Part shown: positions 1 to 15,828 of the stretch, in pieces
How positions within the stretch are numbered: position 1 is the first letter of the stretch
Layout: each line of letters begins with the position of its first letter
Assembly: GCA_042563095.1 (NCBI GenBank)
Contig: JBHPMS010000003.1
Location: 1-53,687, forward strand
Length of the DNA: 53,687 nt
Direction: 5' to 3'
DNA from: Candidatus Margulisiibacteriota bacterium
Lineage (GTDB): Bacteria; Margulisbacteria; WOR-1; XYC2-FULL-46-14
Translations under genes and position numbers: made by a program
Notes under the pieces: generated by a model
The model's input: only the letters and a program-made list of their open reading frames with translations
Told to the model about the DNA's origin: nothing
Database searches by the model: none

Positions 1-894
1 TTGAAGAAAATTCTCTATTGATTTTATTTCTCTTAATTTTAAATCTCCAGATTGCTTTAAGAATGATACTACTCCATACTTTTCTCCCCTTGGTGCTATT
101 AATGGAACCATTAGATAGGGGCGATTGGGAAGTGCAGCTAAGGCCTTTGCTGTGACTTTTACAACTAGGGGTGCTTTTGAAAGGGAGGTATCCATAAAAT
201 TAAGTATTATTTCAAACAGACGGTCTTTTGACATCTGTTGATTTATATAGGTTTCCCCAGAAAGATATGTTTGTACATAAAAATTTGGACTGTCTTCTGA
301 TATAAGTATTGGGTATTGACCAAGCTTTTTATGTAAAGCTTTTTCGAGGGTATTGACTATATCTCTTTCTTCTAACCAAATTTCGGTTGGGTAAAAATAT
401 TCTTTTCCGTCGTTTTCTTGCTGTGAAAATCCGATAGTTGGATTAGAACCGCCAAACTCAAAATGAAGGATTTGAACAATTGTTTCTGCTACTTCTTGCT
501 TGGTATTGCACAAAGCTATGGCAGTGTTTATTCTTTTTTGGCGATCAATTAATTCGGTCTCTCTGGGGAAATCTATAAACTGCTTTATCTTAGCCAGGAT
601 CATCTCATCGCTGGCAACCAGACTTACATTTTCTAAATAAGCTTTAACATCAAAACTTCTTTCAACCGAGCGAATAGATTCGAACATTATATCAAAAGTC
701 CTTTCTAGTTGTTCAATTCTAGATGGATTATAAAATCCTTGTTCTTGCAATGTTCTGGTTGTAGATTCGGTGAGATTGGTCTTAATCAGATCGAATTTGA
801 ATCCGAATTCTTTTAATCTTCTAGCTTTTCTGTTTATCCTTCTGATTGCACCTTGCATCTTTGCAAAGTTGGTTATTTTAGCTCTACTGATCAT
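1..894 (-). CDS. Partial CDS running off the window edge; probable GAF-domain signalling protein
   Basis: Not in the ORF track. Hand translation from ATG at 894 (MISRAKITNF...) is open to base 1. The end, PYLMVPLIAPRGEKYGVVSFLKQSGDLKLREIKSIENFLQ, has the strand-strand-helix pattern that ends GAF domains. Confidence 0.55.
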   Translation of the reverse strand, partial: MISRAKITNFAKMQGAIRRINRKARRLKEFGFKFDLIKTNLTESTTRTLQEQGFYNPSRIEQLERTFDIMFESIRSVERSFDVKAYLENVSLVASDEMILAKIKQFIDFPRETELIDRQKRINTAIALCNTKQEVAETIVQILHFEFGGSNPTIGFSQQENDGKEYFYPTEIWLEERDIVNTLEKALHKKLGQYPILISEDSPNFYVQTYLSGETYINQQMSKDRLFEIILNFMDTSLSKAPLVVKVTAKALAALPNRPYLMVPLIAPRGEKYGVVSFLKQSGDLKLREIKSIENFLQ

Positions 895-961
895 GTATTA
901 TTTTCGTGTTTGAAAACAAGAAATTTCACACGATTTTCGAGGCTAATTGATTTAGTGTTTT

Positions 962-2197
962 TTAGCTAGATTTTCGAAGCAGGATACAGGCATTTTTGCC
1001 GCCGAAACCGTAGGAGCAGGTCAGGGTGGTGTTGATATTCTTTTCTATTTTTTTGTTAGGTACATAAAAGAGGTCGCATTCTGGATCGGGTTCTTCATAA
1101 TTGGCGGTGGGGGGAACGATGCCGTGTTTTAGGGCTAAAGCACAAACCGCCAGCTCAACCGCCCCGGCGGCTCCCAGCAGATGCCCGGTAACCGGTTTGG
1201 TAGAACTGATCAGAGTGTTGTATGCATGCTTATTAAAGCTTTTTTTGATCGCCATTGTTTCGGTTTTGTCGTTCAGAATTGTTCCGGTGCCGTGGGCATT
1301 AATATAATCAACTGCAGTCGGATCAATTTTTGCTTTCTTCAGCGCCAGATCAATTGCTCTGGCGATCTGTTCACCACTATTCTCCGGAGCACTCATATGG
1401 TAAGCATCACAGGTTGTCCCGTCACCGATAATTTCGGCATAAATATTGGCTTTGCGGTTTTTTGCGCGATTATATTCTTCCAGAATAAAAAAAGCGCTCC
1501 CTTCTCCAATCACAAAACCATCCCGGTTCTTATCAAATGGTTTGCAGGCACGGTTAGGAGTACTGTTATTCATCGACATCGCTTTAAGGCTGCTCCAGGC
1601 ACCAAAAATGAGGGGGTGCAAGGGGGCTTCGGTCCCCCCCACAATCAGGAGGTCGTTTTCGTCTGCAGCAATAGACTTGCTGGCCAGGATCACCGCGATA
1701 TTGGTAGAAGCGCAACCGGCAGAAACGGTAAAGGAATTACCTTTTAGACCGTGCTCGAGTGCAATCTGCCCGGACGAGGCTCCCGGGAATCCGTAGACCG
1801 GGACCAGGCCATTAATCTTTTTATTCCCCTGTAATAACTTTGCATGCTGATTAAGGGCCCAGGCGGCGCCACCCAGGGAGGTTCCATCATAGATCCCGAT
1901 CCTCTCTTTGTCTTCCTTTTCTAGATCTAACCTGGCATCTTTGATTGCATCATAACTGGCAGCAACTGCAAATTGGGTGGCCAGGTCTAGCCTTCGTGCG
2001 GTTTTTTTATCTATGTATTTGGTTGGATCGAAGTTTTTGACTTCGGCGGCTAATTTTGAGTTAAAGTGTTCGGTATTGAACCTTTTGGTATGAGCCATGT
2101 CGGATTTCCCCTCAATAATGGTTTCCCAAAAACTTTCTTTTGTTAAACCATTAGGGGCGATCACGCCGATCCCGGTTATTACAACTCTTCTTTTCAT
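962..2197 (-). CDS. fabF: Beta-ketoacyl-ACP synthase II (KAS II)
   Basis: RRVVITGIG start; catalytic Cys (SAGCAS), His (NAHGTGT) and His (TGHLLGAAG); PFDKNRDGFVIGEG; GFGGKN end. No acpP alongside, so it may be a paralogue. Confidence 0.9.
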   Translation of the reverse strand: MKRRVVITGIGVIAPNGLTKESFWETIIEGKSDMAHTKRFNTEHFNSKLAAEVKNFDPTKYIDKKTARRLDLATQFAVAASYDAIKDARLDLEKEDKERIGIYDGTSLGGAAWALNQHAKLLQGNKKINGLVPVYGFPGASSGQIALEHGLKGNSFTVSAGCASTNIAVILASKSIAADENDLLIVGGTEAPLHPLIFGAWSSLKAMSMNNSTPNRACKPFDKNRDGFVIGEGSAFFILEEYNRAKNRKANIYAEIIGDGTTCDAYHMSAPENSGEQIARAIDLALKKAKIDPTAVDYINAHGTGTILNDKTETMAIKKSFNKHAYNTLISSTKPVTGHLLGAAGAVELAVCALALKHGIVPPTANYEEPDPECDLFYVPNKKIEKNINTTLTCSYGFGGKNACILLRKSS

Positions 2198-2310
2198 CTC
2201 TATAATGTATTTAGAAAATCACCTTAATAGTGCTTAAATTATTGCATGGATATAAAGAGATTACAAGTAAACAAAAAAAGTATTTGCAGCATACCTGCCT
2301 GGCGAATAAT

Positions 2311-3212
2311 TCCTACTTTGGTACCATCTTTATCTCAAAAGTTATCTCCGGCGGGGTGGTATCGACCCAAAACGGCCACTCTCCGCGGGAAGCACCAACT
2401 TCGCTTTTTGCCTCAACCACGATCTTGTACTGCCCGTCTTTAAGCGGTACCGGAGATTGGTAAGAGAAATTGACCTCGGTCCGGTAGTCATTAACCTTTA
2501 CGTTTTGCTGTGTAAAATTTGGATCGCTTAAAAGATCGGTCAGCAGTTCATCATTCAAATATAGCTTTGCCGAAGTAATGGCAGGAATCCCTTCGCCTAT
2601 TGTTGTGTTTTCTGTATAAACAGACTTGATAAAAGAACCTCCCACAATAGGTTGCGGATTGTTGGTGTAGGTGTTTGGCTTTGGAGTCATATTTGAGATA
2701 AGCATAGGGATGGTGTTGAGGACAAATTTGCAGAGCTGATGAGATTTAACTCCCACCGCATTAGTTGCCCTGATCGCAAGAGTATTTTGTCCTTCGGCAA
2801 AGGGTAAATTTTCTAACACAAATTCGCCGGTAACCGGATGGACATTTTTAATATTTTTCCAGGCGGCGTGGTTGAACGAATACTGGAACTGCTTCATAAG
2901 TTTAGGGATTAGATAATTCAATTTCCCCTCAATCCTTTTCGGTGGTTTGGTGACCAGTATCTCTGTAATATACTTTCTATCACCATCGATCGTGATTGGG
3001 ATTGCCATATTTTGATTGCCGTAATAAACCCGTTTTTCGTTGATCGATTTGATCTTTAATGATTGGTAGCCGGATGGGGGAGTGCGAGGGGTAGTGATGG
3101 ACATTGCCGTAACTTCTCCGGAAGCAGATGACGATGAAGCTGTTGCTTCTTCTTCTTTAGTGGTTTGTATATCCTGGACGGTGAAGATGGCGGGGGTGTC
3201 GAGGATGGCGGT
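2311..3212. repeat. 902-bp direct repeat, copy 1 (3' part of paralogue A)
   Basis: Aligns without gaps to 6674-7575 (offset 4363) with about 15 mismatches by manual comparison. Confidence 0.95.
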
Positions 3213-5033
3213 TCTGATGAGGTTTTGTTCCTCTAAAATCCTATTGTGAGCATCTAGATTTGTGCGAATTTGATCCAAATGAGTATATACATTATTTACA
3301 AGACTTAATGAAGCTGGAATTCTCATCCACCAATAATTTTCCCAGGCGGTCCAATAAGGTATTCCTGATAAGGTTGAAATATATGCAGCAGTCGCTATTG
3401 CAGTTTCTGTTGCAGCCACCTCTAAAGCAAATTGATTTGAAAGATAGTTTTCAAAACTGTCTGATTTAAATTCTTTTAAATAAGTTGGAACATTTTTTAG
3501 GTGTGCAACTCCTTCCCCGCGGGCACTTGATCCGGGAACAACAAAATCACCATCAAGCGTAAAATATCCGCCACCAAAAAAATATTCAGCTATATCAAGC
3601 TTATCCATGGTTCTTGCCATTGAAAGGCTCAAAAACTTACTCTGCCAGTTTGGCAGAGCCCAAAAACCAGGGTGAAACAATGTCGACTCTTGAAAATTTA
3701 AGCTGAAATAAGTATCAATTGCATTGTTCATGAAGTCAATTACTGGTGAGTCAATAAAAGGTGATGAGGATGCATCGCCAGGCCAATCGGGATTGGGAAT
3801 TGAAACAGACAGCGGACCAGACTTAAAAGATTCTGAAAAGAATTCTATAAAACTATTTGCTTCTCTGTGATTAAACATCCATTTGAGACCAGATAAGAAA
3901 GCAGTTGAAGTAGGATCGTAGGTTGGAATTCCATTTGCATAAACAATACTATATGCAGGTTCGCTGGTTGCATCTGTGAGCTTTGCATCTTTTAACGCCC
4001 AACCAAGGCGAGGCCCATTCAGTGCAGACAGAAATAATCCGCTTACTGGTAGAAATTTGATGCTATCTAAATTTCCGGAACTAAAATAGCTAGCTAATGA
4101 TAAAATAGGAGCATTTGATGGAAAAAGTTCTGTTACACTTGGATCAAATGGAACTGTGACTCTTGATCCATTTGGAGATATACCATACAAGCTTTTTATA
4201 AACCATCCGCCTAATGCACCTGCACCACTAAAAGTTGCTGCAGAGTAGTATGGCGACCATGGATTTGTTGGATTTCCCTTGAGTACTTTATACATTTCCT
4301 GTAAATCAAATACATCCATAATTTGTTTGATAGTTACAGGCGGATCTCCCTTTGCAAATATCCATTTATCAGTTTTTGTACCAAAATAAGGAAAATAATC
4401 AAACCATGCCTGCCAGTATAGAAAAGCTGTGCCAGTTCCAGTAAACGGAGCTGCTATAAAAACAACTTTATCAATGTCATTCTGATAGAATCCATCTTCC
4501 TTCTTATGGCTTTTACCTCCGCCTAACGGAGTAACATCAATAACATTGGAATAAATATATGATCTTACAGAAAAATTTCCTGCGCTGTGAGATAAAATAA
4601 TATATCTACTTGGAACTTCTGATTCTGTTGGTGTTTTGCCATATTTACTTTTGAACCATTTTTTGTAATCAATTTTAGCTTGTTCAAGCCAACATAATCC
4701 ATTTGTTTCAGTTGATGGATTTTTGTAGTTTCTACTGCCCAATTCTTTAGCTTTTGTTAGATAATCCCCACTTGGGCTGCTGTATGAATATGTGTATACT
4801 TTGCCTTCAAGTCCTAATCCGCCATTTGAGATAGGTTTTTCTAGATAGTATTTTAAACTCTTATATCCGCCCTCACCTGTAAAAATGGTTTTATCAGCAT
4901 TCCAACCATGAACAAGGATAAATAAATAATCCTGATAAGTATCTGTGCCTTCAATTACTCCAGCTTGTATAATATTCAAGCTTAGAGTGAAAGTCAGAAT
5001 AGTTATTAATAAAATAATTTTTATTACATCCAT
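2313..5033 (-). CDS. Exported alpha/beta-hydrolase (PGAP1/LCAT lipase-like) with conserved Ig-like C-terminal region, paralogue A (906 aa)
   Basis: Signal peptide; oxyanion LVHGW; nucleophile elbow ILSHSAG; FIAAPFTG; putative Asp DGDFVVP and His LDAHNR; ends WVDTTPPEITF (Ig-like). Confidence 0.7.
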   Translation of the reverse strand: MDVIKIILLITILTFTLSLNIIQAGVIEGTDTYQDYLFILVHGWNADKTIFTGEGGYKSLKYYLEKPISNGGLGLEGKVYTYSYSSPSGDYLTKAKELGSRNYKNPSTETNGLCWLEQAKIDYKKWFKSKYGKTPTESEVPSRYIILSHSAGNFSVRSYIYSNVIDVTPLGGGKSHKKEDGFYQNDIDKVVFIAAPFTGTGTAFLYWQAWFDYFPYFGTKTDKWIFAKGDPPVTIKQIMDVFDLQEMYKVLKGNPTNPWSPYYSAATFSGAGALGGWFIKSLYGISPNGSRVTVPFDPSVTELFPSNAPILSLASYFSSGNLDSIKFLPVSGLFLSALNGPRLGWALKDAKLTDATSEPAYSIVYANGIPTYDPTSTAFLSGLKWMFNHREANSFIEFFSESFKSGPLSVSIPNPDWPGDASSSPFIDSPVIDFMNNAIDTYFSLNFQESTLFHPGFWALPNWQSKFLSLSMARTMDKLDIAEYFFGGGYFTLDGDFVVPGSSARGEGVAHLKNVPTYLKEFKSDSFENYLSNQFALEVAATETAIATAAYISTLSGIPYWTAWENYWWMRIPASLSLVNNVYTHLDQIRTNLDAHNRILEEQNLIRTAILDTPAIFTVQDIQTTKEEEATASSSSASGEVTAMSITTPRTPPSGYQSLKIKSINEKRVYYGNQNMAIPITIDGDRKYITEILVTKPPKRIEGKLNYLIPKLMKQFQYSFNHAAWKNIKNVHPVTGEFVLENLPFAEGQNTLAIRATNAVGVKSHQLCKFVLNTIPMLISNMTPKPNTYTNNPQPIVGGSFIKSVYTENTTIGEGIPAITSAKLYLNDELLTDLLSDPNFTQQNVKVNDYRTEVNFSYQSPVPLKDGQYKIVVEAKSEVGASRGEWPFWVDTTPPEITFEIKMVPK

Positions 5034-5043
5034 AATAAGTTTT

Positions 5044-5676
5044 TTAGGCAGATTTTAAGAACCAAGCAAATACTGCCATGAACAATATATAACCTAAAGC
5101 TCCCCTTATAATATTTTGAACAAATTTAGCACCATTATTTTTTTCTGCTATTATTGATTTGTAATGCACGGGAAGAATTAACTCAGCATGGGCAATATTC
5201 GAATCTCTTTTGTCGGTGACTTCTAGGTTATATTCAACAGTTCCAAAAAAATTATTTGGATAATTAACATTTATAATAATCTTATTATTACCAGGTAAAG
5301 TTGAAGAAGTCATTTTATAGTTGTAAGCACCTTTTGTGTCCGGAAATGGGTTTGGGTTTATACTTATAAAGCCATTTGGCACATCAATTTTTAATATGTC
5401 CTTACCAAACTTTATATTTTCGTTTTCCATAATATAAACAGATAAGTTGAATTCTTCGTTTGGCCCGACTTTTTTGGGGGTATTAACCCTAAGCGTAACG
5501 TCCGGGATATTAATTTCTTGAGAGGCACTTGACATTTTTGATAATGGTATTTTTAAATTCTCGTTTTTTCTATCAATAGTTGCCGACATTGCAAGATCGA
5601 TCATGCAAATTGTTGTAAAAAGCGATGTGACCAATAATATGGATATGTATCTTATTGCACTAATAGGCTTTTTCAT
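5044..5676 (-). CDS. Hypothetical exported protein with an Ig-like core and C-terminal transmembrane anchor
   Basis: Hydrophobic N-terminus, beta-rich middle (PKKVGPNEEFNLSVYI), C-terminal hydrophobic helix; GGAGG RBS; 10 bp upstream of paralogue A. Confidence 0.7.
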   Translation of the reverse strand: MKKPISAIRYISILLVTSLFTTICMIDLAMSATIDRKNENLKIPLSKMSSASQEINIPDVTLRVNTPKKVGPNEEFNLSVYIMENENIKFGKDILKIDVPNGFISINPNPFPDTKGAYNYKMTSSTLPGNNKIIINVNYPNNFFGTVEYNLEVTDKRDSNIAHAELILPVHYKSIIAEKNNGAKFVQNIIRGALGYILFMAVFAWFLKSA

Positions 5677-5778
5677 AAAATCCTCCTTCTAAATTATTAT
5701 CGACATGTTTTGGCATGCGTTTCACCTCTATTTATTTCTGCTCTCGGTTTTTATTTTTTCTTTATAATTCTGTATTGC

Positions 5779-5839
5779 CCCATCCGTTTACCTCATTCTA
5801 TCCGATCCTGCCCGGTTTGGGTAGTGGGGCGGGATTGGT
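5779..5839. repeat. 61-bp cassette head repeat, copy 1
   Basis: 59/61 identical to 10425-10485; ends on the minus strand in GAGGT-N6-ATGGG (RBS plus start codon). Confidence 0.9.
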
Positions 5840-5848
5840 AAATTTACT

Positions 5849-5862
5849 GCCTGCCGGCAGGC
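5849..5862. repeat. Perfect 14-bp palindrome GCCTGCCGGCAGGC (REP-like)
   Basis: Read directly; lies between the 61-bp head and the HEPN promoter. Confidence 0.7.
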
Positions 5863-5873
5863 CATGATTTTCC

Positions 5874-5902
5874 TTGTAGGGAAGAGATATATAAAGTATA
5901 AT
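5874..5902 (+). promoter_or_regulatory. Sigma70-type promoter of the HEPN-MNT pair
   Basis: TTGTAG-17 bp-TATAAT; ATG 10 nt downstream with no SD. Confidence 0.65.
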
Positions 5903-5912
5903 TTATATCATA

Positions 5913-6317
5913 ATGACAAAACATCCTGAGCTTGTGTTTAAACATTGGCTTGCACAATCAAATGAAGACCTGAAATCAGCAGAGGCTCTTTTTATTGCCG
6001 GACGCTATACCTGGTGTGCATTTATTTGTCAGCAAACAATAGAAAAAGTATTAAAAGCAGCTTATGTGAAAATATATAAAAAAATTCCTCCGCACATACA
6101 TAAACTAGAAAGGTTGTGCCAACTTCTAGAAATTGTACCTCCTGAAGAATTATTGGCTGCTTTGATTGAGATTGATAAATATTACATTGCAAGCCGGTAT
6201 CCTTCCTATATAAAAAAACTTAATATAAACAATCGAAACAACGCGAAAAGTTTATTAAATGACACAAAGGGGATACAGAAATGGATTATAAAGATCCAAA
6301 AGTTAGAAAAAAGATAA
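5913..6317 (+). CDS. HEPN domain protein (TA component)
   Basis: WLAQSNEDLKSAEAL...AFICQQTIEKVLKA...HIHKLERL...YIASRYP; overlaps an MNT gene. Confidence 0.85.
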   Translation: MTKHPELVFKHWLAQSNEDLKSAEALFIAGRYTWCAFICQQTIEKVLKAAYVKIYKKIPPHIHKLERLCQLLEIVPPEELLAALIEIDKYYIASRYPSYIKKLNINNRNNAKSLLNDTKGIQKWIIKIQKLEKR

Positions 6318-6622
6318 AATGTTTTCTGGATGAGTTTAAAAAAGTAGCTCCGATGGAAAGGGCAATTGTTTTTGGATCCTATGCCCGGGGCAGGGCAAAA
6401 AAATGGTCTGATATAGACCTGGCAATTGTTTCTAAAAGATTTGAAGGTATTAGCAGATTTAGGCGCCTGGTTCTACTTGGCAAATTGGCGTGGAAAGCAA
6501 AATCTACAGAAATTGAGGCAATTGGTTTTACTCCAAAGGAATATAAAACTGTTAATAAATATGATCTACTCCATGAAATAAAAGAAAATGGAATTACAAT
6601 TTATAAAAACGGTAGATCTTAA
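6281..6622 (+). CDS. Minimal nucleotidyltransferase (MNT)
   Basis: FGSYARG...SDIDLAIVS (GS-x10-DxD motif). Confidence 0.85.
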   Translation: MDYKDPKVRKKIKCFLDEFKKVAPMERAIVFGSYARGRAKKWSDIDLAIVSKRFEGISRFRRLVLLGKLAWKAKSTEIEAIGFTPKEYKTVNKYDLLHEIKENGITIYKNGRS

Positions 6623-6673
6623 AATATTAATCTGTTTTTCCCAAATTGATACTAACCCTGTACTGCATCCAAG

Positions 6674-7575
6674 TCCTACTTTGGTACCATCTTTATCTCA
6701 AAAGTTATCTCCGGCGGGGTGGTATCGACCCAAAACGGCCACTCTCCGCGGGAAGCGCCAACTTCGCTTTTAGCTTCCACCACAATCTTGTACTGCCCGT
6801 CTTTGAGAGGTTCAGGGGGATTATAAGAGAAATTGACCTCGGTCCGGTAGTCATTAACCTTTACGTTTTGCTGTGTAAAATTTGGATCGCTTAAAAGATC
6901 GGTCAGCAGTTCATCATTCAAATATAGCTTTGCCGAAGTAATGGCAGGAATCCCTTCGCCTATTGTTGTGTTTTCTGTATAAACAGACTTGATAAAAGAA
7001 CCTCCCACAATAGGTTGCGGATTGTTGGTGTAGGTGTTTGGCTTTGGAGTCATATTTGAGATAAGCATAGGGATGGTGTTGAGGACAAATTTGCAGAGCT
7101 GATGAGATTTAACTCCCACCGCATTAGTTGCCCTGATCGCAAGAGTATTTTGTCCTTCGGCAAAGGGTAAATTTTCTAACACAAATTCGCCGGTAACCGG
7201 ATGGACATTTTTAATATTTTTCCAGGCGGCGTGGTTGAACGAATACTGGAACTGCTTCATAAGTTTAGGGATTAGATAATTCAATTTCCCCTCAATCCTT
7301 TTCGGTGGTTTGGTGACCAGTATCTCTGTAATATACTTTCTATCACCATCGATCGTGATTGGGATTGCCATATTTTGATTGCCGTAATAAACCCGTTTTT
7401 CGTTGATCGATTTGATCTTTAATGATTGGTAGCCGGATGGGGGAGTGCGAGGGGTAGTGATGGACAATGCCGTAACTTCTCCGGAAGCAGATGACGATGA
7501 AGCTGTTGCTTCTTCTTCTTTAGTGGTTTGTATATCCTGGACGGTGAAGATGGCGGGGGTGTCGAGGATGGCGGT
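6674..7575. repeat. 902-bp direct repeat, copy 2 (3' part of paralogue B)
   Basis: Matches 2311-3212. Confidence 0.95.
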
Positions 7576-9168
7576 ACGGATAAGGTCATACTGTCCAACC
7601 ATACGGCCATGAGCTTCAAGATCCCATCTGATATCATCAATATTTGAATGTACTTGAACAACAATCCCAACAGAAACGGGGATTCTCATAGGCCAAAGAC
7701 TTTGCCATGCGACATTATATGGAGTGCCACTCATTGCCATTATTGCTGCGGTTGCCGCAATTGCTGTTTCTGTGGCTGTTATTTCCATTGGCAATTGATT
7801 GCTCAAATAATTCTCAAATCTATCAGTTTTAAATGTGTGGGTATAACGATTTGCTTTTCTTAAATGTTCAACTGTATCTCCTCTTGCACTATATTCAGGA
7901 ACCAGAGCATCACCATCATTTATGAAGAAACCGAAATTAATTAAACTTGCCTGCGTAAAACTTAATAGTCTCGCCTGACTTGTTGAAAGATTACCGAGGA
8001 GGGGTAAAGATAATATCCCATAATTCAATTGTATTCCTTTCATAAATAAATTGTCATACACATCTCCTTTAGAAAAATAATCATATCCTCTAGAAGCACA
8101 TTGTTCAGCATAATCTTCATAATTTGCAATTTTATCGTTAATGCATTTAATTCCGGTCATTGCTAAAGTTGATTCCCAATCAAAAACTGGTATTCCTTTG
8201 CCATAAACAATACTATAAGCCGGTTCTTTCGTCACATCATTTAGTTTTGCAGTTCTTAGTGTTTCTACTATTGGGCTATTAGGCCACATATCGATTAAAC
8301 CACTCAACCACGGCTTAAGAGAATTATAGCCAAAACCATTTTTGATAACCTGATCACTATAAATGTCAACTCCAGCAATTAGCACAGCTGCATAATATGC
8401 ATGAAATGGATTATACTCACGATTCATTAGAATACTAATGATTTCATCCCAGTCCCACTCATAATGGAAATCAGTTATTTCAAATTCACCGTTTGATCCT
8501 TTCCTGATATTTCCCTTGGCGCCATTAAAAAGACCCTGATATCCTTTCCGGGCAGCTCTTGCCCAAAATCCGGCCATTGCAATTGTGCTGTCACTTCCTA
8601 ATAATGGTGGGGCGATGAATACAACTTTTTCCACGTCATTTTGGTAGAAACCATTCGCATTGCCGAATACAGAATCTGAATATATGTAACTTCTTACCGC
8701 AAAATTACCCATTGAATGACTTATTAAAATATATTTTGTGGGAACATTTTTGTTTTTATTTTCTGGATATTTACTGAAGTCCTGAAAATCTTCCCTTGCT
8801 CTTTCTAACCAGGATATAAAATTAGGTGTTGGTTGGTAACTTCTATCCCCCAGTTCTCTGGCATCTTGTTTATTAATACTTTTATACTGGCCATTTTCAA
8901 TGGCTGTTTTACCTGCAGTGTCTGTAAATGTGTATGCAAATACTCTTCCATGTAAATCTAAATTGTCTTCGAGGTATTTTTTTAAATTTCCATAAAGAGT
9001 TTTGCCTTCAAAGATATCTGCACTGCTATTAATTCCATGCACAAGCACAAAGAGATAATCTTTGAATGTTTTTGTTCCCTCATTTTGAAAAGCAAAGGCT
9101 TTGTTTGAAGAGAATAAAAACATTGCAAATAATACAATAAGTAATAAATTAAATAGTATCTTCTTCAT
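6676..9168 (-). CDS. Exported alpha/beta-hydrolase (PGAP1/LCAT lipase-like), paralogue B (830 aa)
   Basis: Signal peptide; LVHGINS; ISHSMG; FIAPPLLG; DGDALVP; LEAHGR. C-terminal ~300 aa nearly identical to paralogue A. Confidence 0.7.
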   Translation of the reverse strand: MKKILFNLLLIVLFAMFLFSSNKAFAFQNEGTKTFKDYLFVLVHGINSSADIFEGKTLYGNLKKYLEDNLDLHGRVFAYTFTDTAGKTAIENGQYKSINKQDARELGDRSYQPTPNFISWLERAREDFQDFSKYPENKNKNVPTKYILISHSMGNFAVRSYIYSDSVFGNANGFYQNDVEKVVFIAPPLLGSDSTIAMAGFWARAARKGYQGLFNGAKGNIRKGSNGEFEITDFHYEWDWDEIISILMNREYNPFHAYYAAVLIAGVDIYSDQVIKNGFGYNSLKPWLSGLIDMWPNSPIVETLRTAKLNDVTKEPAYSIVYGKGIPVFDWESTLAMTGIKCINDKIANYEDYAEQCASRGYDYFSKGDVYDNLFMKGIQLNYGILSLPLLGNLSTSQARLLSFTQASLINFGFFINDGDALVPEYSARGDTVEHLRKANRYTHTFKTDRFENYLSNQLPMEITATETAIAATAAIMAMSGTPYNVAWQSLWPMRIPVSVGIVVQVHSNIDDIRWDLEAHGRMVGQYDLIRTAILDTPAIFTVQDIQTTKEEEATASSSSASGEVTALSITTPRTPPSGYQSLKIKSINEKRVYYGNQNMAIPITIDGDRKYITEILVTKPPKRIEGKLNYLIPKLMKQFQYSFNHAAWKNIKNVHPVTGEFVLENLPFAEGQNTLAIRATNAVGVKSHQLCKFVLNTIPMLISNMTPKPNTYTNNPQPIVGGSFIKSVYTENTTIGEGIPAITSAKLYLNDELLTDLLSDPNFTQQNVKVNDYRTEVNFSYNPPEPLKDGQYKIVVEAKSEVGASRGEWPFWVDTTPPEITFEIKMVPK

Positions 9169-9190
9169 CTTGAATAATTACCCATATTTA

Positions 9191-9679
9191 TCAATTCGAT
9201 GCGGGCCATCCAATGCTCCTAAACAACTCAAGGAAGCCAGCGGGATTCTGGTTTTCTGTTTCGTTCTTTTTATTGAAATCTTTTTGATCGCTTTTCTTGA
9301 CCAAGTGATATACTGTATTAATCCTTATTACTGAACTAATTATCTCATAATATTCTTTCTCAACCAGCTTATCTACTATTTTATTGGATCCGGGTTTTTC
9401 ATATACATTGCATGAATGATACTTTGCTTTCAGCATGGTTTTATTATTATTTATTTCTATATCCTCTTCTGAAACATACCCAATTGGCTTAGACATACTT
9501 GTTCGCAAATGTCCGATGACTGGCAATATAAATATTATTCCTACAATCCCAAAAAACACAAGGTATTCAGCAGTTTTGTTAGATGTATTTTGTACTATTT
9601 GTGCATGAGCTTGGCTGTTATAAATACAAATATTTAATACTGCTAATAATAAAAATATAACAATTATCTTCTTATGCAT
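9191..9679 (-). CDS. Small exported/membrane protein ending in WPASN
   Basis: The ORF-track TTG start at 9697 is the GGAGG RBS itself, so ATG 9679 (MHKKIIVIFLL) is preferred. Signal peptide plus a second TM segment; C-terminal half is homologous to the 9719-10429 product. Confidence 0.7.
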   Translation of the reverse strand: MHKKIIVIFLLLAVLNICIYNSQAHAQIVQNTSNKTAEYLVFFGIVGIIFILPVIGHLRTSMSKPIGYVSEEDIEINNNKTMLKAKYHSCNVYEKPGSNKIVDKLVEKEYYEIISSVIRINTVYHLVKKSDQKDFNKKNETENQNPAGFLELFRSIGWPASN

Positions 9680-9718
9680 TGTAATTATTTCCTCCAAAAA
9701 AAATCTGTATCATCTCAT

Positions 9719-10429
9719 TTAGTTCGATGCGGGCCATAAAGCCCCTCCAAAAAGAAATTCCAATATATTTGACGGATTATCCTTTCTTGTTTTATCTGTA
9801 TTTTCAGTATTTTTATCGGTTCTTACAATAAGATAATATGTAACATTATCTTTTTTTTGAGAACTAATTTTTCGATACTTGTAATTTTTATCTAATTCAC
9901 CAATAATTTTACTGCTTCCAGCCTGTTTATAAATAAGTATATTTTTACGCTTAAAAATAATATGGGCAGATTGCGAATCAACTTTCACATCGTTTTCAGA
10001 AACCCATAACCAATCCTTATTAACAACTTGGAGCTGCGTATTTTTGCTGCTTTTAATTGATGGATATTTAGTAGCGCCCGGGATATTTTGTGCCCATAAC
10101 TTCTCTTTTTCAATAGAAACATTATTTATCCACGCATTTAAGCCTGGTTTTACTTCAACACTAGTCCAGCTATCTATTTCTTCTGCAACCTTGTATCTTT
10201 CACCTTTATTGACATATGATATCCTATCTGCTTTCCAGTTAGGTAAATTATAGGCTACAGAAGCATGTCTAATAATGACATAGAAGTCACTATCTGCTAA
10301 AGAACTTCCTTCCTGTGTGCTGGCAAGTACTTGGTTTGAGAATAAAACCGATAAAATAATTAATACAATAATAATTATAGAGATCCAATCGCAATATTTA
10401 ATAAAATATTTATTCATTTGTTTTCCCAT
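9719..10429 (-). CDS. Exported SH3b-like domain protein ending in WPASN
   Basis: N-terminal TM; RISYVNKGERYKVAEEIDSWTSVEVKPGLNAWI fits a bacterial SH3 pattern; start codon lies inside the 61-bp head. Confidence 0.65.
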   Translation of the reverse strand: MGKQMNKYFIKYCDWISIIIIVLIILSVLFSNQVLASTQEGSSLADSDFYVIIRHASVAYNLPNWKADRISYVNKGERYKVAEEIDSWTSVEVKPGLNAWINNVSIEKEKLWAQNIPGATKYPSIKSSKNTQLQVVNKDWLWVSENDVKVDSQSAHIIFKRKNILIYKQAGSSKIIGELDKNYKYRKISSQKKDNVTYYLIVRTDKNTENTDKTRKDNPSNILEFLFGGALWPASN

Positions 10430-10485
10430 CCGTTTACCTCATTCTATCCGATCCGGCCTGGTTTGGGTAGTGGGGCGGGATTGGT
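10425..10485. repeat. 61-bp cassette head repeat, copy 2
   Basis: 59/61 identical to 5779-5839. Confidence 0.9.
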
Positions 10486-10500
10486 CAAACCGGCGGGATT

Positions 10501-10839
10501 TTAATTGTTTGAGATTATTTTTTCAAGTTGAATTATCAGGAGAGGTATATCATCTGTAATTATTTCCCAGACAATATCCAGGTCAACGTCAAAATATCCA
10601 TGGATAAGACGGTCTCGTGTGCCAGCGATTTCCTTCCAGGCAATTTCCGGATATTGTTGGCGAGAAGATGAAGAAACACCTTTTGCTGCTTCTCCAATAA
10701 CTTCTAATAATCGGATCAATGCTAATGACAATTGTTCGTCTGATTCCAGTTCATCGCGTTTCCTGCCCTGAGCAAAACTTGATGCCTTTTTTGAAGCATC
10801 TAACATATGACGGATTCTAACTAGATCCTCATTAACCAA
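10501..10839 (-). CDS. HepT-like (DUF86) RNase toxin
   Basis: WKEIAGTRDRLIHGYFDVDLDIVW with Rx4H motif; directly downstream of an MNT. Confidence 0.88.
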   Translation of the reverse strand: MVNEDLVRIRHMLDASKKASSFAQGRKRDELESDEQLSLALIRLLEVIGEAAKGVSSSSRQQYPEIAWKEIAGTRDRLIHGYFDVDLDIVWEIITDDIPLLIIQLEKIISNN

Positions 10840-11128
10840 AATATATAACCTCCGCTTTTGATATTACCTGATCACGAAAGTAGCGACTTAAAAAATTGGG
10901 TGTATGTAAATCCACCTTGTGTTTTAAGATTTTTGACAGCTCCTCTTCCATAGTAAAAAAAGCAAATCCAGGTATGTGTTGCTGTTCAAATTCTACAAGA
11001 ACATCTACATCGCTATCTGGACGAAAATCAGAACTGAGAACAGAACCAAAAAAAGATAATTTTAAAATGTGGTGCTGACGGCAATAATCAGCCAGCTTAT
11101 CATTGTCAACAGGTATTCTTACAGTCAT
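10832..11128 (-). CDS. MntA-like nucleotidyltransferase antitoxin
   Basis: FFGSVLSSDFRPDSDVDVLVEF; overlaps the toxin start. Confidence 0.88.
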   Translation of the reverse strand: MTVRIPVDNDKLADYCRQHHILKLSFFGSVLSSDFRPDSDVDVLVEFEQQHIPGFAFFTMEEELSKILKHKVDLHTPNFLSRYFRDQVISKAEVIYFG

Positions 11129-11363: not shown

Positions 11364-11579
11364 ATGAAATATCAAAGGCACCAATTGCTTAATGATCTGG
11401 AAAGAATAACCGGGGAAATTGCTGGCCTAAAAAAAATAATTATACTTGAATTTAAGCCATCCTCCAATGGAAAGAATAAAGCAGCTTGGGATGATCTAAA
11501 AAAATCTATCAGTGAATTATCCAATAAATGGGATAATCTATCAGCTTCTGAAGAGATAAGAAGACAAAGGGAAAAATAA
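11364..11579 (+). CDS. Putative antitoxin (VapB-like position)
   Basis: 71 aa; its stop abuts the TTG start of a PIN gene. Confidence 0.65.
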   Translation: MKYQRHQLLNDLERITGEIAGLKKIIILEFKPSSNGKNKAAWDDLKKSISELSNKWDNLSASEEIRRQREK

Positions 11580-12008
11580 TTGGAACGTTTAACCTTAGAT
11601 AGTTCTGTCATTGTAGCTGCTCTACGAAGACCCGAAGAAAAACATCATGAATGTATAAAATTATTAGAAGGGATTATCAATGGAGATTTTGAAGCTGTAG
11701 AACCATATAGTGTACTGGTAGAAGTAGTCGCCGCCGTTAAGAGAAGAACTGGATCCGAACAATTTGCTCGAAGGATAAGAGATAACCTCTTATCAATTGA
11801 TACAATATCATTTGAAGAGTTAGTAAGATTTCGAGCAGAAAAGGCAGCAGAAATGGCGTTGTTGTCTGGCTTGCGTGGGATGGATGCACTGGTAGTGCAA
11901 ATCGCAAAGGAAAATAATTGTGTATTAGTAACTCTTGATAGTGAAATGATTAAGCTGGGCCAGAGATTTGTTAAAACTAAAACTGTTGAAGAATTGTTGA
12001 AGAATTAA
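11580..12008 (+). CDS. vapC: PIN-domain VapC-family toxin
   Basis: TLDSSV (Asp), VLVEVV (Glu), GMDAL (Asp), VTLDSE acidic PIN pattern. Confidence 0.85.
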   Translation: MERLTLDSSVIVAALRRPEEKHHECIKLLEGIINGDFEAVEPYSVLVEVVAAVKRRTGSEQFARRIRDNLLSIDTISFEELVRFRAEKAAEMALLSGLRGMDALVVQIAKENNCVLVTLDSEMIKLGQRFVKTKTVEELLKN

Positions 12009-12120: not shown

Positions 12121-12621
12121 GTGAATTATATGAGCAACAAACCTTTGGTAATGGTAGTTGATGACGAGGTTGATCTGGCTGATACTATAAGCAATACAAT
12201 CCGTGAAAGTGGTAAATATGTTTCTTTAACCGCCTATTCTGCCAAAGAAGCGCTTGGTTTAATTGAAGAACATAAGAATTTTTTTAAAGTAAACAATACC
12301 ACCATTCGTTTGATTATACTTGATATAAAAATGCCCGAAATGGATGGGCTGGAATTTTTGGCAAAAGTCAGGGAAACTTACCCGCCCGAAAAAATTGGTG
12401 TGCTGATGTTGACCGCCTGGGAAGATCCGGATAAATGGGAGAAAGCCCGTGAAGGCTTTGTGGTTGCTTATCTTAAAAAACCATTCAAAGCTGATGAGCT
12501 TTTATCAGCCATCGACCGCTTCTTTGCCGGTAAAGATAAATGGATGATTGAACAGACTAAGTGGGAAACCCACGCGCGTGAAACAAAACTCCATGCCCAG
12601 GAAAAAGAGAAGAAGGACTGA
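12121..12621 (+). CDS. Single-domain response regulator (CheY-like) with short C-terminal extension
   Basis: VVDDE, LDIKMPEMDG phosphoacceptor, LTA, KPF motifs. Confidence 0.88.
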   Translation: MNYMSNKPLVMVVDDEVDLADTISNTIRESGKYVSLTAYSAKEALGLIEEHKNFFKVNNTTIRLIILDIKMPEMDGLEFLAKVRETYPPEKIGVLMLTAWEDPDKWEKAREGFVVAYLKKPFKADELLSAIDRFFAGKDKWMIEQTKWETHARETKLHAQEKEKKD

Positions 12622-14721: not shown

Positions 14722-15828
14722 CTATGATTTAATCGGGGCAAGACGAGCTTTGCGTCGAGCGAGTTTTTCGCGTTTCAGTTTATAAATGTAAGCTAAGACT
14801 TCGGCTACCGCTTGATACAATTCCCTTGGCATTTTTTCACCAACATCAGTAGTCCGGTAGATTGAGCGGGCGAGTGGTTCGTTTTCTACAATCGGAACAT
14901 TAGCCTCATCCGCAATTTTTTTGATTTCTTCGGCTGCTTTTCTTAATCCTTTTGCTAAAAGTATCGGTGCTTTCATCTGCCTGGCTTTATACTGTATGGC
15001 AACAGCTACGTGAGTTGGGTTGGTAACAACAACATCAGCCTGTGGAACCGATGACATCATTCGCTGCTGGGCGACCTGGCGCTGCAGGTCTCGCATCCTT
15101 TGTTTAACCATCGGATCTCCCTCCAACCGCTTATATTCCTCTTTTATCTCCTGTTTGGTCATTTTTAAATTACGCATATATTCGAAGCGTTTGTAAAAGT
15201 AATCAAGGATTGCAATTATTATATAAAAAGAGCCGACCCGCATGGCAGCTTTGTAGGCGATCGATCCACCCAGGACCAGTGCATCCCACGGTTGTCCTTC
15301 CATCAAGACAATAATGAAGGGGAGGTCTTCTTGCACCGCCCGGATCATGATATAAAAAACGATAAATATTTTTAATAGTGATTTTATCAGTTCAACAAAT
15401 CCCTGCATCGAAAAAATCTTTTTGAATCCTTCCAGCGGATTCAGTTTCTCAATTTTTGGGGTAAGCGGGTCGAATGATACCACAAACCCGGTCTGCAGAG
15501 CCTCTGTGACCAGTGCGGCAATGTAAGTTATGCCAAAAATTGGCAAAAGCACAAAAGCCATGGCCCTGATCCCGACTAACAGTATATAGGCAACAGTTGA
15601 GAGCGAAAATTCATGGGCAACATGCGGGATTAAATTGAGAATTGTAAAAGCCATACCGTACAGTTCTTTCCACATGTATTCGCCCAGATTCTTAAAAAGA
15701 TAGTATGAAATAAGCAGCAAAACCGCGGTGGTTATCTCTTTGCTTTTTGCTACCTGCCCTTTTTTTCTCGCTTCGCTCAGGCGATGCGGCGTCGGTTCTT
15801 CGGTTTTATCTCCGCCCTGGTCTCCCAT
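14722..15828 (-). CDS. flhB: Flagellar export protein FlhB
   Basis: DKTEEPTPHRL; EYKRLEGDP; NPTH autocleavage motif. Confidence 0.97.
   Translation of the reverse strand: MGDQGGDKTEEPTPHRLSEARKKGQVAKSKEITTAVLLLISYYLFKNLGEYMWKELYGMAFTILNLIPHVAHEFSLSTVAYILLVGIRAMAFVLLPIFGITYIAALVTEALQTGFVVSFDPLTPKIEKLNPLEGFKKIFSMQGFVELIKSLLKIFIVFYIMIRAVQEDLPFIIVLMEGQPWDALVLGGSIAYKAAMRVGSFYIIIAILDYFYKRFEYMRNLKMTKQEIKEEYKRLEGDPMVKQRMRDLQRQVAQQRMMSSVPQADVVVTNPTHVAVAIQYKARQMKAPILLAKGLRKAAEEIKKIADEANVPIVENEPLARSIYRTTDVGEKMPRELYQAVAEVLAYIYKLKREKLARRKARLAPIKS

What the first reader, a model, noticed from the sequence alone, without database searches (positions are those of the whole stretch)
2311..10485. Polymorphic cassette array of exported lipase-like enzymes with variable N-terminus and constant C-terminus
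Seen: two units share one layout on the minus strand: [61-bp head] - [small exported gene(s)] - [signal peptide + alpha/beta-hydrolase + 902-bp constant tail]. The enzyme halves keep the fold motifs (LVHG, SHSxG, DGDxxVP, AHxR) but are otherwise highly divergent and visibly AT-richer. Near-identity starts sharply at RTAILDTPAIF. Established: polymorphic toxins usually have a constant N-terminal carrier and a variable C-terminal tip, and lipase effectors such as Tle come with adjacent cognate immunity genes. Inference: this is the reverse architecture, a Sec-exported enzyme head swapped by recombination onto a fixed C-terminal display or assembly module, with the upstream small genes as cognate immunity or partner proteins. 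I do not recognise it as a named system.
Basis: partly seen in the sequence, partly recalled or inferred. Interest (0 to 1): 0.85.

Follow-up and report, generated by a model that had tools for sequence, protein, structure and literature searches.

The report
Lipase-like paralogues sharing a converted tail
Two neighbouring genes of an uncultured Saganbacteria-type bacterium encode exported lipase-like enzymes with old, very different catalytic heads but a nearly identical Ig-like tail, most likely because the tail DNA was recently copied from one gene to the other, not because they form a toxin-immunity cassette system.

Summary
Genes A (2313-5033, 906 aa) and B (6676-9168, 830 aa) share a gap-free 916-bp 3' repeat with 19 mismatches. 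Their heads are 38% identical, and a 64-nt leader recurs upstream of each unit.

The genes belong to a rare family of Saganbacteria/Margulisiibacteriota. It has a Sec signal, a lipase-like alpha/beta-hydrolase head (AF2 pLDDT 87; best folds are bacterial true lipases) and tandem Ig-like domains. In relatives the same module often forms the N-terminus of 1,600-5,300-aa fibre proteins. This half-complete MAG holds at least 9 paralogues.

Head and tail trees disagree strongly. Each head type (A, B, C33, C61) is sister to a head in another genome, while tails cluster by genome. Tail mismatches are clustered, and GC3 jumps from 0.24-0.25 (head) to 0.48 (tail). This is segmental concerted evolution by gene conversion, as in H. 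pylori babA/babB.

The toxin-immunity reading is not supported. Upstream small genes do not co-vary with head type, s210 is an orphan, s168/s236 look SH3b-like, and no T6SS sheath gene occurs in 41 related genomes.

Verdict: a new member of a known kind, of moderate interest.

The parts
2313..5033 (-). Gene A, 906 aa. It has a signal peptide, an A-type lipase-like alpha/beta-hydrolase head (aa 1-~605), a Ser/Thr/Glu-rich linker and three Ig-like domains.
   Evidence: ORF. Family alignment with invariant HSxG / DGD / H. The head is sister to G028_C1 (57% identity, SH-aLRT 99).
2308..3223 (-). Copy A of the 916-bp homogenised tail segment. It holds a diverged 67-bp patch at 2394-2460.
   Evidence: blastn gives 97.9% over 916 bp with 0 gaps. 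Mismatch positions are listed.
5044..5676 (-). s210, a small AT-rich exported or membrane protein (N-terminal signal/anchor and C-terminal TM helix). It is an orphan.
   Evidence: No Pfam hit. No homologue of similar length among 5.8e9 proteins. Residues 90-210 are 39% identical to the C-terminus of the hydrolase fusion P0008. GC is 31.6%, below the 1st percentile.
5779..5842 (-). Leader ('head') copy A. It ends in GAGG-N7-ATG. Here that ATG opens only a 10-codon frame, and s210 starts about 110 nt further on.
5913..6622 (+). HEPN (5913-6317) and nucleotidyltransferase (6281-6622) toxin-antitoxin pair between the two units.
   Evidence: Pfam HEPN 9.5e-25 and NTP_transf_2 2e-11.
6676..9168 (-). 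Gene B, 830 aa. It has a signal peptide, a B-type lipase-like head (aa 1-533; Ser152, Asp420, His520), a linker and three Ig-like domains.
   Evidence: ORF. AF2 head model with pLDDT 86.9 and pTM 0.84. Foldseek top hits are bacterial lipases. The tail matches tandem Ig-like domains.
6671..7586 (-). Copy B of the 916-bp homogenised tail segment.
9191..9697 (-). s168, a small exported protein. It is a paralogue of s236, ends in WPASN and is probably SH3b-like.
   Evidence: 33% identity over 96 aa to s236. Weak match (E 1.5e-4) to the 289-aa SH3_3 protein upstream of the G001 giant homologue.
9719..10429 (-). s236, a small exported protein and paralogue of s168. Its first ATG lies inside the leader.
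10425..10488 (-). Leader ('head') copy B. It supplies the RBS and the first ATG of s236.
10501..11128 (-). HepT (10501-10839) and MNT (10832-11128) toxin-antitoxin pair, directly upstream of unit B.
   Evidence: Pfam HepT-like 1.4e-27 and Polbeta 1.6e-12.

Best explanation
Units A and B are two ancient paralogues of a family specific to Saganbacteria/Margulisiibacteriota, sitting in tandem.

Each protein is Sec-exported. It has a lipase-like serine-hydrolase head of about 530-600 aa, with an inferred triad of Ser152, Asp420 and His520 in B. A Ser/Thr/Glu-rich linker joins the head to three Ig-like beta-sandwich domains.

In relatives the same head plus three domains is the N-terminus of 1,600-5,300-aa Ig-repeat fibre proteins. 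The tail is therefore best read as the base of a stalk that presents the enzyme in the envelope or at the cell surface.

The two heads belong to different, old head types that have orthologues in other genomes. The tails are nearly identical because homologous recombination (gene conversion) between the paralogues recently overwrote one tail with the other. One breakpoint lies at the most conserved junction motif (I-x-T-A-I-L-D-T-P-A-I-F). The other lies at the end of homology, just past the stop codon.

This event is the latest in long-running concerted evolution of the tail within each genome. That process also raised tail GC3, consistent with GC-biased conversion.

The 64-nt leader is a shared 5' control and translation-start segment. 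It was kept or copied in the same way.

The small upstream genes are variable, lineage-specific envelope proteins transcribed with the enzyme. They are not cognate immunity genes.

Shown: the anatomy, identity profile, mosaicism, fold class, family distribution, tree discordance, GC3 contrast and lack of co-variation with upstream genes. Inferred: lipolytic activity, export route and localisation, conversion as the mechanism, and the reason why tails must stay alike.
For: - Identity profile: 916 bp at 97.9% with no gaps against heads that do not align as DNA. The mismatches are clustered into a 67-bp patch at about 21% divergence, which equals the divergence from paralogue C33.
- Pairwise head/tail identity within genomes: own A/B 38/98.7%, own A/C33 39/80%, G001 pair 38/84%, G028 pairs 39-58/54-76%. 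The best head partners lie in other genomes: A-G028_C1 56%, B-P0003 54%, C33-G028_C6 58%, C61-L017 54%.
- Trees: all four own heads fall in separate clades with foreign sisters (SH-aLRT 99-100). The tails group own A+B (98), then +C33 (95), and the G001 pair (99).
- AU tests reject own A+B as a head clade (p 0.001). They also reject A+G028_C1 and B+P0003 as tail clades (p below 1e-30).
- GC3: head 0.24-0.25 (2nd percentile of long ORFs) vs tail 0.48 (98th percentile). The same contrast appears in own C61 and G028.
- Fold: AF2 head pLDDT 86.9. Foldseek finds family I.5 and I.1/I.2 lipases and PlaB at probability 0.99-1.0. The tail matches SiiE-type, RAGE and titin-type tandem Ig domains and Big_13.
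- Family: 251 representatives among 1.84e9 proteins, many of them N-termini of 1,000-7,779-aa proteins. It occurs in 17 of 41 genomes of the class and has at least 9 paralogues in this MAG.
- The tail search finds only hydrolase-headed proteins.
- The same kind of pattern is documented for H. pylori babA/babB and homA/homB 3' segments (PMC3960876).
Against: - The genome is a 52%-complete, 80-contig MAG. A 643-bp exact repeat inside one contig is hard to assemble from short reads.
- With only two copies, the direction of transfer (tail converted vs head replaced) cannot be told.
- Fold matches are weak in E-value (2e-3) and TM-score (0.26-0.34) because of large inserts. Pfam hits to LCAT, Abhydrolase_6, DUF676 and PGAP1 are all below their cut-offs.
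- The geometry of the triad, His520 in particular, could not be inspected.
- Higher conservation of tails could partly reflect purifying selection. However, selection alone would not make tails cluster by genome or be identical at synonymous sites.
Confidence: 0.72

Rival explanations
1. One reading: a reverse-architecture polymorphic toxin array. Sec-exported lipase toxins with swappable heads sit on a fixed delivery or display tail. The small upstream exported proteins are cognate immunity proteins.
For: - The head is lipase-like, as in Tle-type effectors.
- Each unit has its own small exported gene or genes directly upstream, unrelated between the units.
- The small genes are compositionally odd.
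- The region is rich in toxin-antitoxin modules.
- Recombination at the head/tail junction is real.
Against: - Upstream genes do not track head type across genomes, and TolB-like or LolA-like genes accompany several head types.
- Head types are old, conserved lineages with orthologues across families of the class.
- Many homologues are heads of 1,600-5,300-aa fibre proteins.
- No TssC/VipB was found in 41 genomes.
- Each gene is full length with its own signal peptide, and there are no orphan tips.
- s210 has no homologue of similar length anywhere.
- s168/s236 look like SH3b-type proteins.
Confidence: 0.07
2. Cassette import. One unit arose by replacing the interior of a duplicated unit (small gene plus head) with foreign or ectopic DNA. 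The conserved tail and the 64-nt leader served as the two recombination anchors. On this view heads are exchanged, perhaps between strains, rather than tails being converted.
For: - Both ends of the unit are near-identical (64 nt at 95%, 916 bp at 98%) while everything between is unrelated or 38% identical.
- In unit A the leader's ATG is followed by only a 10-codon remnant.
- The interior is AT-rich.
- A second leader class is shared by three other units that have unrelated first genes.
Against: - The low head GC3 is a family-wide property seen in other genomes too, so it is not a mark of recent import.
- The leader was found nowhere else: not in 40 relatives nor in metagenome contigs.
- No strain-level data show alternative cassettes.
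- The mosaic patch inside the tail fits repeated short conversion tracts better than a single double crossover.
Confidence: 0.13
3. Assembly artefact. The near-identity, or the linkage of heads to tails, was produced by repeat collapse or chimeric joining in a short-read metagenome assembly.
For: The MAG is 52% complete in 80 contigs, and several contigs end inside paralogues of this family. The repeat contains a 643-bp exact stretch. Reads could not be examined.
Against: - Two different heads each need a tail.
- The two tail copies differ at 19 positions in a structured way.
- Related genomes, some assembled into 1-6 contigs, show the same pattern of tails resembling each other within a genome (76-84% protein identity) over diverged heads.
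Confidence: 0.06

Closest known systems
Helicobacter pylori babA/babB and homA/homB outer-membrane protein paralogues (segmental concerted evolution; Pride & Blaser 2002 as cited in PMC3960876)
   Same: The paralogues have a 5'/N-terminal functional region that groups by allele type across strains. Their 3'/C-terminal region is homogenised within each genome by gene conversion. Chimeras form at a conserved junction (one search compared).
   Different: Here the variable part is an enzyme head, not an adhesin domain. The constant part is a set of soluble Ig-like stalk domains, not a beta-barrel anchor. The comparison is across genera and families of an uncultured class, not across strains. No link to a host or to antigenic variation is known.
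Bacterial true lipases of families I.1/I.2/I.5 (Burkholderia/Pseudomonas lipases; Geobacillus T1/L1/T6 lipases) and Legionella PlaB
   Same: They share the alpha/beta-hydrolase core, with the nucleophile in an x-H-S-M-G elbow after a beta-strand and a large helical lid or cap insertion. They are the best Foldseek matches.
   Different: Sequence identity is only 10-16% and TM-scores are 0.26-0.34. No Pfam lipase model reaches its cut-off. The head is much larger (about 500 aa), carries an extra C-terminal helical bundle that holds the putative His, and is fused to Ig-like domains or giant stalks.
Type VI lipase effectors (Tle1-5) with Tli immunity proteins, and polymorphic toxin systems in general
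   Same: Both involve a lipase-like hydrolase with small exported proteins encoded next to it. Both are modular proteins that recombine at a domain junction.
   Different: No T6SS is present in this class. The variable part is N-terminal and carries its own Sec signal. The neighbouring genes do not co-vary with the enzyme. The heads are ancient orthologous lineages.
Giant Ig-repeat surface proteins of Gram-negative bacteria (e.g. Salmonella SiiE, BIg/Big_13-type adhesins)
   Same: The tail domains match SiiE-type BIg domains and Big_13. Homologues extend to 4,400-5,300 aa of such repeats.
   Different: These proteins carry an N-terminal Sec signal and an enzyme head, not a T1SS C-terminal signal. 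The two window genes stop after three domains.

Membership tests
alpha/beta-hydrolase fold lipase/esterase | Nucleophile elbow (small-x-Ser-x-small) between a beta-strand and a helix | tested here: met
   H151-S152-M-G154 is invariant in 7 homologues and at least 90% conserved in 40. The AF2 model places it between strand 145-151 and helix 154-162.
alpha/beta-hydrolase fold lipase/esterase | Overall alpha/beta-hydrolase fold | tested here: met
   AF2 pLDDT is 86.9. The Foldseek top 50 hits are almost all lipases, esterases or alpha/beta-hydrolases at probability 0.84-1.0. However, E is about 2e-3 and TM-scores are 0.26-0.34.
alpha/beta-hydrolase fold lipase/esterase | Ser-Asp-His triad in catalytic geometry | tested here: inconclusive
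   D418/D420 and H520 are invariant in the 7-sequence alignment. Model coordinates could not be inspected, and H520 lies in a helical C-terminal segment.
alpha/beta-hydrolase fold lipase/esterase | Match to a curated family model above its threshold | tested here: not met
   LCAT scores 19.5 against a cut-off of 21, Abhydrolase_6 20.3 against 26.3, DUF676 17.5 against 20.3 and PGAP1 13.2 against 24.3. There is no PDB sequence match for the head.
alpha/beta-hydrolase fold lipase/esterase | Lipolytic activity | not testable with these tools
   This needs an enzyme assay with an S152A control.
Polymorphic toxin-immunity system | Adjacent immunity gene that co-varies with the toxin domain | tested here: not met
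   Orthologous heads have unrelated upstream genes, and the same upstream family (TolB-like) serves several head types.
Polymorphic toxin-immunity system | Rapidly exchanged toxin tips or orphan cassettes on a conserved trafficking part | tested here: not met
   The heads form deep, well-supported lineages shared across families of the class. Both genes are complete, each with its own signal peptide.
Polymorphic toxin-immunity system | Toxicity neutralised by the cognate partner | not testable with these tools
   This needs co-expression in a laboratory strain.
T6SS Tle lipase effector | A type VI secretion apparatus in the genome | tested here: not met
   PF05943 (TssC/VipB) is found in 0 of 41 genomes of the class, and the control genome is positive. 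The own genome is only 52% complete.
Segmental concerted evolution of a paralogous family (bab/hom type) | One gene segment is more alike within a genome than between genomes, while the other groups by type across genomes | tested here: met
   Identity tables, head and tail trees, and AU tests.
Segmental concerted evolution of a paralogous family (bab/hom type) | Mosaic conversion tracts with sharp borders | tested here: met
   A 752-bp stretch with 1 mismatch, a 67-bp patch with 14 mismatches, then 86 bp with 1 mismatch. The 5' border is sharp, at 3213-3223.
Segmental concerted evolution of a paralogous family (bab/hom type) | Conversion events observed directly (strain or time series) | not testable with these tools
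Diversity-generating retroelement target | 3' variable region whose differences fall at template adenines | tested here: not met
   bAvd-like genes lie near homologues in relatives. The 67-bp patch differs at C, T, G and A positions alike (alignment read directly).

The most novel reading that the evidence does not exclude
The genome-specific tail is a docking module. All head types of one cell must fit one common surface scaffold or export partner, for example the 4,158-aa Ig-repeat protein and the FadL/PorV-like outer-membrane protein encoded after a paralogue on contig C14. Tails are therefore kept alike, while the conserved junction motif and shared leaders let heads and accessory genes be exchanged as cassettes among paralogues or strains. 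The result would be a lipolytic counterpart of the cellulosome's 'many enzymes, one dockerin' logic.
Probability: 0.12. Interest if true: 0.6.

Novelty: new member of a known kind. Interest (0 to 1): 0.36.

Why it matters
The finding defines an uncharacterised family of exported enzymes on a stalk. The family is largely confined to Saganbacteria/Margulisiibacteriota, non-photosynthetic sister lineages of Cyanobacteria known only from metagenomes, and it is unusually expanded in this genome.

The clean split between ancient heads and genome-specific tails is a textbook-quality case of segmental concerted evolution. It also shows a GC3 signature compatible with GC-biased gene conversion in a bacterium.

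Practically, it warns against reading 'variable domain plus small neighbouring genes' as toxin-immunity without testing co-variation. It does not open a new mechanism.

Tried and rejected
- **RNA element in the leader.** The folds are no better than shuffled sequence (z -0.98 and -0.33). Rfam finds only tRNAs in the window.
- **Sigma-70 promoter in the leader.** The scan found none inside it, and promoter-like hits in the region are not enriched (40 vs 33 expected).
- **Leader in other genomes.** It is absent from 40 relatives and from metagenome contigs, tested with both halves as exact patterns.
- **DGR mutagenesis of the 3' patch.** Rejected, because the mismatches are not adenine-specific.
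- **Contig ends inside paralogues as evidence of further exact repeats.** Rejected, because contig ends are only 72-76% identical to one another.
- **Recent foreign origin of the heads, from their low GC.** Rejected as sole evidence, because the head/tail GC3 contrast is family-wide.
- **First full-length AF2 model (7-sequence alignment).** It was too poor for the head (pLDDT 50) and was used only for the Ig-like tail.
- **PDB sequence search.** It gave nothing for the head.
- **Homologue search for s210.** It returned only itself.

Full report
**Observation.** The window holds two minus-strand genes, A (2313-5033, 906 aa) and B (6676-9168, 830 aa). Their 3' ends share a gap-free 916-bp repeat, 2308-3223 vs 6671-7586, with 19 mismatches. 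Upstream of the repeat the genes do not align as DNA, except for a 64-71-nt patch that encodes the EPAYSIVYG motif. The proteins are 38% identical there.

The mismatches in the repeat are not spread evenly. Fourteen lie in 2394-2460, three at the border (3213-3219), and single ones at 3104 and 2310. A 64-nt segment, 5779-5842 vs 10425-10488 with 3 mismatches, precedes each unit and ends in GAGG-N7-ATG. It occurs only twice in the genome.

GC is 44% in the tails, 35-36% in the heads and 31-32% in the small upstream genes, against 39.8% for the genome. The corrections are 916 bp rather than 902 and 64 nt rather than 61. In addition, the small genes of the two units are unrelated: s210 on one side, the paralogous pair s168/s236 on the other.

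**Organism and family.** The window is contig C23 of a 1.0-Mb, 80-contig genome bin that is 52% complete. Relatives of the proteins are rare: 10 hits among 5.8e9 clustered proteins. A profile of the head finds 251 representatives among 1.84e9 proteins.

Named genomes that carry the family are Candidatus Saganbacteria and Margulisiibacteriota MAGs. The family is present in 17 of 41 genomes of the same class. This half genome holds at least 9 paralogues: the two in the window, plus genes on C33, C61, C70, C60, C49, C73 and C65 and a tail fragment on C14.

Many homologues are not about 800 aa. They are instead the N-terminus of proteins of 1,600 to over 5,000 aa made of Ig-like repeats. On C14 a tail end is followed by a separate 4,158-aa Ig-repeat gene and then a FadL/UPF0164-like outer-membrane protein. 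In G028 and G022 these parts are fused into single 5,257- and 4,567-aa proteins with the same C-terminal ending.

**What the protein is.** Both proteins start with a typical n-h-c signal peptide (read directly from the sequence). Pfam gives only sub-threshold hits to LCAT, Abhydrolase_6, DUF676 and PGAP1 for the head and to Big_13 for the tail.

With a 40-sequence alignment, AlphaFold2 models the head of B well (pLDDT 86.9, pTM 0.84). It shows a strand-Ser152-helix nucleophile elbow, a large helical insertion and a C-terminal helical bundle. Foldseek against the PDB returns mainly bacterial true lipases (Geobacillus family I.5, Burkholderia/Pseudomonas I.1/I.2), Legionella PlaB and other alpha/beta-hydrolases. 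Probability is 0.99-1.0 for the top lipase and PlaB matches, but E-values are weak (about 2e-3) and TM-scores low (0.26-0.34).

Across seven homologues HSxG, DGD and a histidine 10 residues before the junction are invariant. The geometry of the triad could not be inspected. The tail matches tandem Ig-like domains of SiiE, RAGE and titin type.

**Why the tails are identical.** I split an alignment of 17 family members at the junction motif and compared the two parts.

| Pair, within one genome | Head identity | Tail identity |
|---|---|---|
| own A / own B | 38% | 98.7% |
| own A / own C33 | 39% | 80% |
| G001 pair | 38% | 84% |
| G028 pairs | 39-58% | 54-76% |

The closest head of every own paralogue lies in another genome: A with G028_C1 (56%), B with P0003 (54%), C33 with G028_C6 (58%) and C61 with L017 (54%). 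The tails of those partners are only 48-59% identical to the own tails.

Maximum-likelihood trees say the same. The four own heads sit in four separate clades with foreign sisters (SH-aLRT 99-100). The own tails cluster together (A+B 98, +C33 95), as do the two G001 tails (99). AU tests reject own A+B as a head clade (p 0.001). They also reject A+G028_C1 or B+P0003 as tail clades (p below 1e-30). These groups were named after the trees had been seen.

Third-position GC is 0.24-0.25 in the heads (2nd percentile of long ORFs in this genome) and 0.48 in the tails (98th percentile). The same contrast exists in own C61 and in G028.

Together these results show that head types are ancient and evolve independently, while tails are repeatedly homogenised within a genome. 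The 916-bp repeat is the newest such event. Its 5' border falls in the most conserved motif of the family (I-x-T-A-I-L-D-T-P-A-I-F), where homology is sufficient for a crossover. Its 3' border falls where homology between the loci ends, 5 nt past the stop codon.

The 67-bp patch is as diverged (about 21%) as the C33 paralogue is from A/B (23%). This points to more than one tract. The GC3 excess fits GC-biased conversion, which is an inference.

The same pattern is known from the 3' segments of H. pylori babA/babB and homA/homB (PMC3960876).

**The upstream genes and the toxin hypothesis.**
- s210 has no homologue of comparable length among 5.8e9 proteins. Its C-terminal 120 aa resemble the C-terminus of P0008, a 520-aa protein in which a truncated hydrolase head is fused to this module.
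- s168 and s236 are paralogues of each other. They are weakly related to a 289-aa SH3_3 protein that precedes the giant homologue in G001.
- I tabulated the genes upstream of 24 family members. A TolB-like beta-propeller (9 cases) precedes several different head types, including P0003, the nearest relative of head B. LolA-like proteins (Pfam above cut-off) lie two or three genes upstream in 6 cases. Orthologues of heads A and C33 in G028 have other, unrelated neighbours.
- No TssC/VipB was found in 41 genomes.
- A search with the tail alone found only hydrolase-headed proteins.

I conclude that the toxin-immunity reading is unlikely (about 7%). The neighbours look like periplasmic or envelope accessory proteins.

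**The leader.** The 64-nt element shows no significant fold. It does not occur in 40 relatives or in the metagenome contig collection.

A second, unrelated leader of about 68 nt is shared at 81-91% identity by the units on C61, C70 and C60. It ends in GGGAGG-N5-ATG and is followed by unrelated first genes. In C61 and C70 it encodes the end of a short frame whose stop overlaps the next start, as ATGA.

Shared 5' control segments in front of otherwise unrelated first genes are thus a recurring property of these units. Whether they are kept by selection or copied by conversion cannot be told from two or three copies.

**Caveats.** The recurrence of alike tails over diverged heads in better-assembled relatives argues against a pure artefact. 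Enzyme activity, export route and localisation are inferred.

**Verdict.** The recombinational modularity is real and is part of family-wide concerted evolution of the tail. The toxin-immunity cassette model is not supported. The finding is a new member of a known kind, namely a paralogous exported-protein family with segmental gene conversion, built on an uncharacterised lipase-like family. Interest is moderate.

Noticed in passing
own genome contigs C61:2980-3048(-), C70:2-70(+), C60:47-116(+): A second conserved leader of about 68 nt (81-91% identity) heads three other hydrolase units whose first genes are unrelated (TolB-like 302 aa, 184 aa, 352 aa). It ends in GGGAGG-N5-ATG. In C61 and C70 it carries the end of a short frame (..LKS..S..NKMKGRKR*) whose stop overlaps the next start as ATGA. 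In C60 it is fused in frame. Two of the contigs break exactly at this element.
   Followed up: partly
L036 (G035:C3:102901-118500), 424-2502(+) and 8372-10537(-): In another genome of the class, two hydrolase paralogues lie as a 2.9-kb inverted repeat (84.6% identity). They flank two tyrosine-recombinase (Phage_integrase) ORFs and duplicated DprA-like genes. A third paralogue lies next to them. This may be an invertible or integrative element.
   Followed up: partly
L045 (ENA k141_5448731), 1349-2911: P0008 (520 aa) joins the first ~400 aa of a hydrolase head, cut right after FHPGFW and so lacking the Asp and His, to a module homologous to the C-terminal 120 aa of window s210, including its TM helix. 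It is either a natural fusion or pseudo-enzyme, or a chimeric assembly.
   Followed up: partly
own genome contig C14:1-13368 (L040): The last 97 aa of a family tail are followed, with overlapping stop and start, by a 4,158-aa Ig-repeat protein (FlgD_ig, Big_13, weak CHU_C) and then a FadL/UPF0164-like outer-membrane protein. In G028 and G022 the head, tail and fibre are one 5,257- or 4,567-aa protein with the same ...GKIAVLK end and the same downstream gene.
   Followed up: partly
window 2313-5033 and 6676-9168: Within single genes, GC3 jumps from 0.24-0.25 (2nd percentile of the genome's long ORFs) in the head to 0.48 (98th percentile) in the tail. The same contrast appears in own C61 and in G028. 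This may be a signature of GC-biased gene conversion.
   Followed up: yes
window 5913-6622, 10501-11128, 11364-12008: Three toxin-antitoxin-type modules (HEPN/NTase, HepT/MNT, and a small ORF plus PIN) are packed around the two units. They lie between fabF (962-2197) and a response regulator (12121-12621) next to flhA. A similar response regulator neighbours family members in L017 and G035.
   Followed up: partly
window 9191-9205 and 9719-9733: s168 and s236 both end in WPASN, encoded by the same TGGCCCGCATCGAA, while the rest of the shared ~95 aa is only 33% identical. No function was found for this ending.
   Followed up: partly
L044:4704-5054, L039:11826-12197, L036:11263-11760 and 14783-15220: Four-helix-bundle genes of the 23S_rRNA_IVP/bAvd type sit one or two genes upstream of family members in three other genomes. 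The ORF listings of these loci and Pfam scans of a few selected ORFs showed no reverse transcriptase, and the window's 3' patch shows no adenine-specific mismatch pattern.
   Followed up: partly
L017 (MHRF01000002.1): A contig labelled Candidatus Taylorbacteria (CPR) carries a family member whose head is sister to own C61. It has the same neighbours as the Saganbacteria loci (LolA-like, TolB-like, response regulator). Either the contig is mis-binned or the locus was transferred.
   Followed up: no
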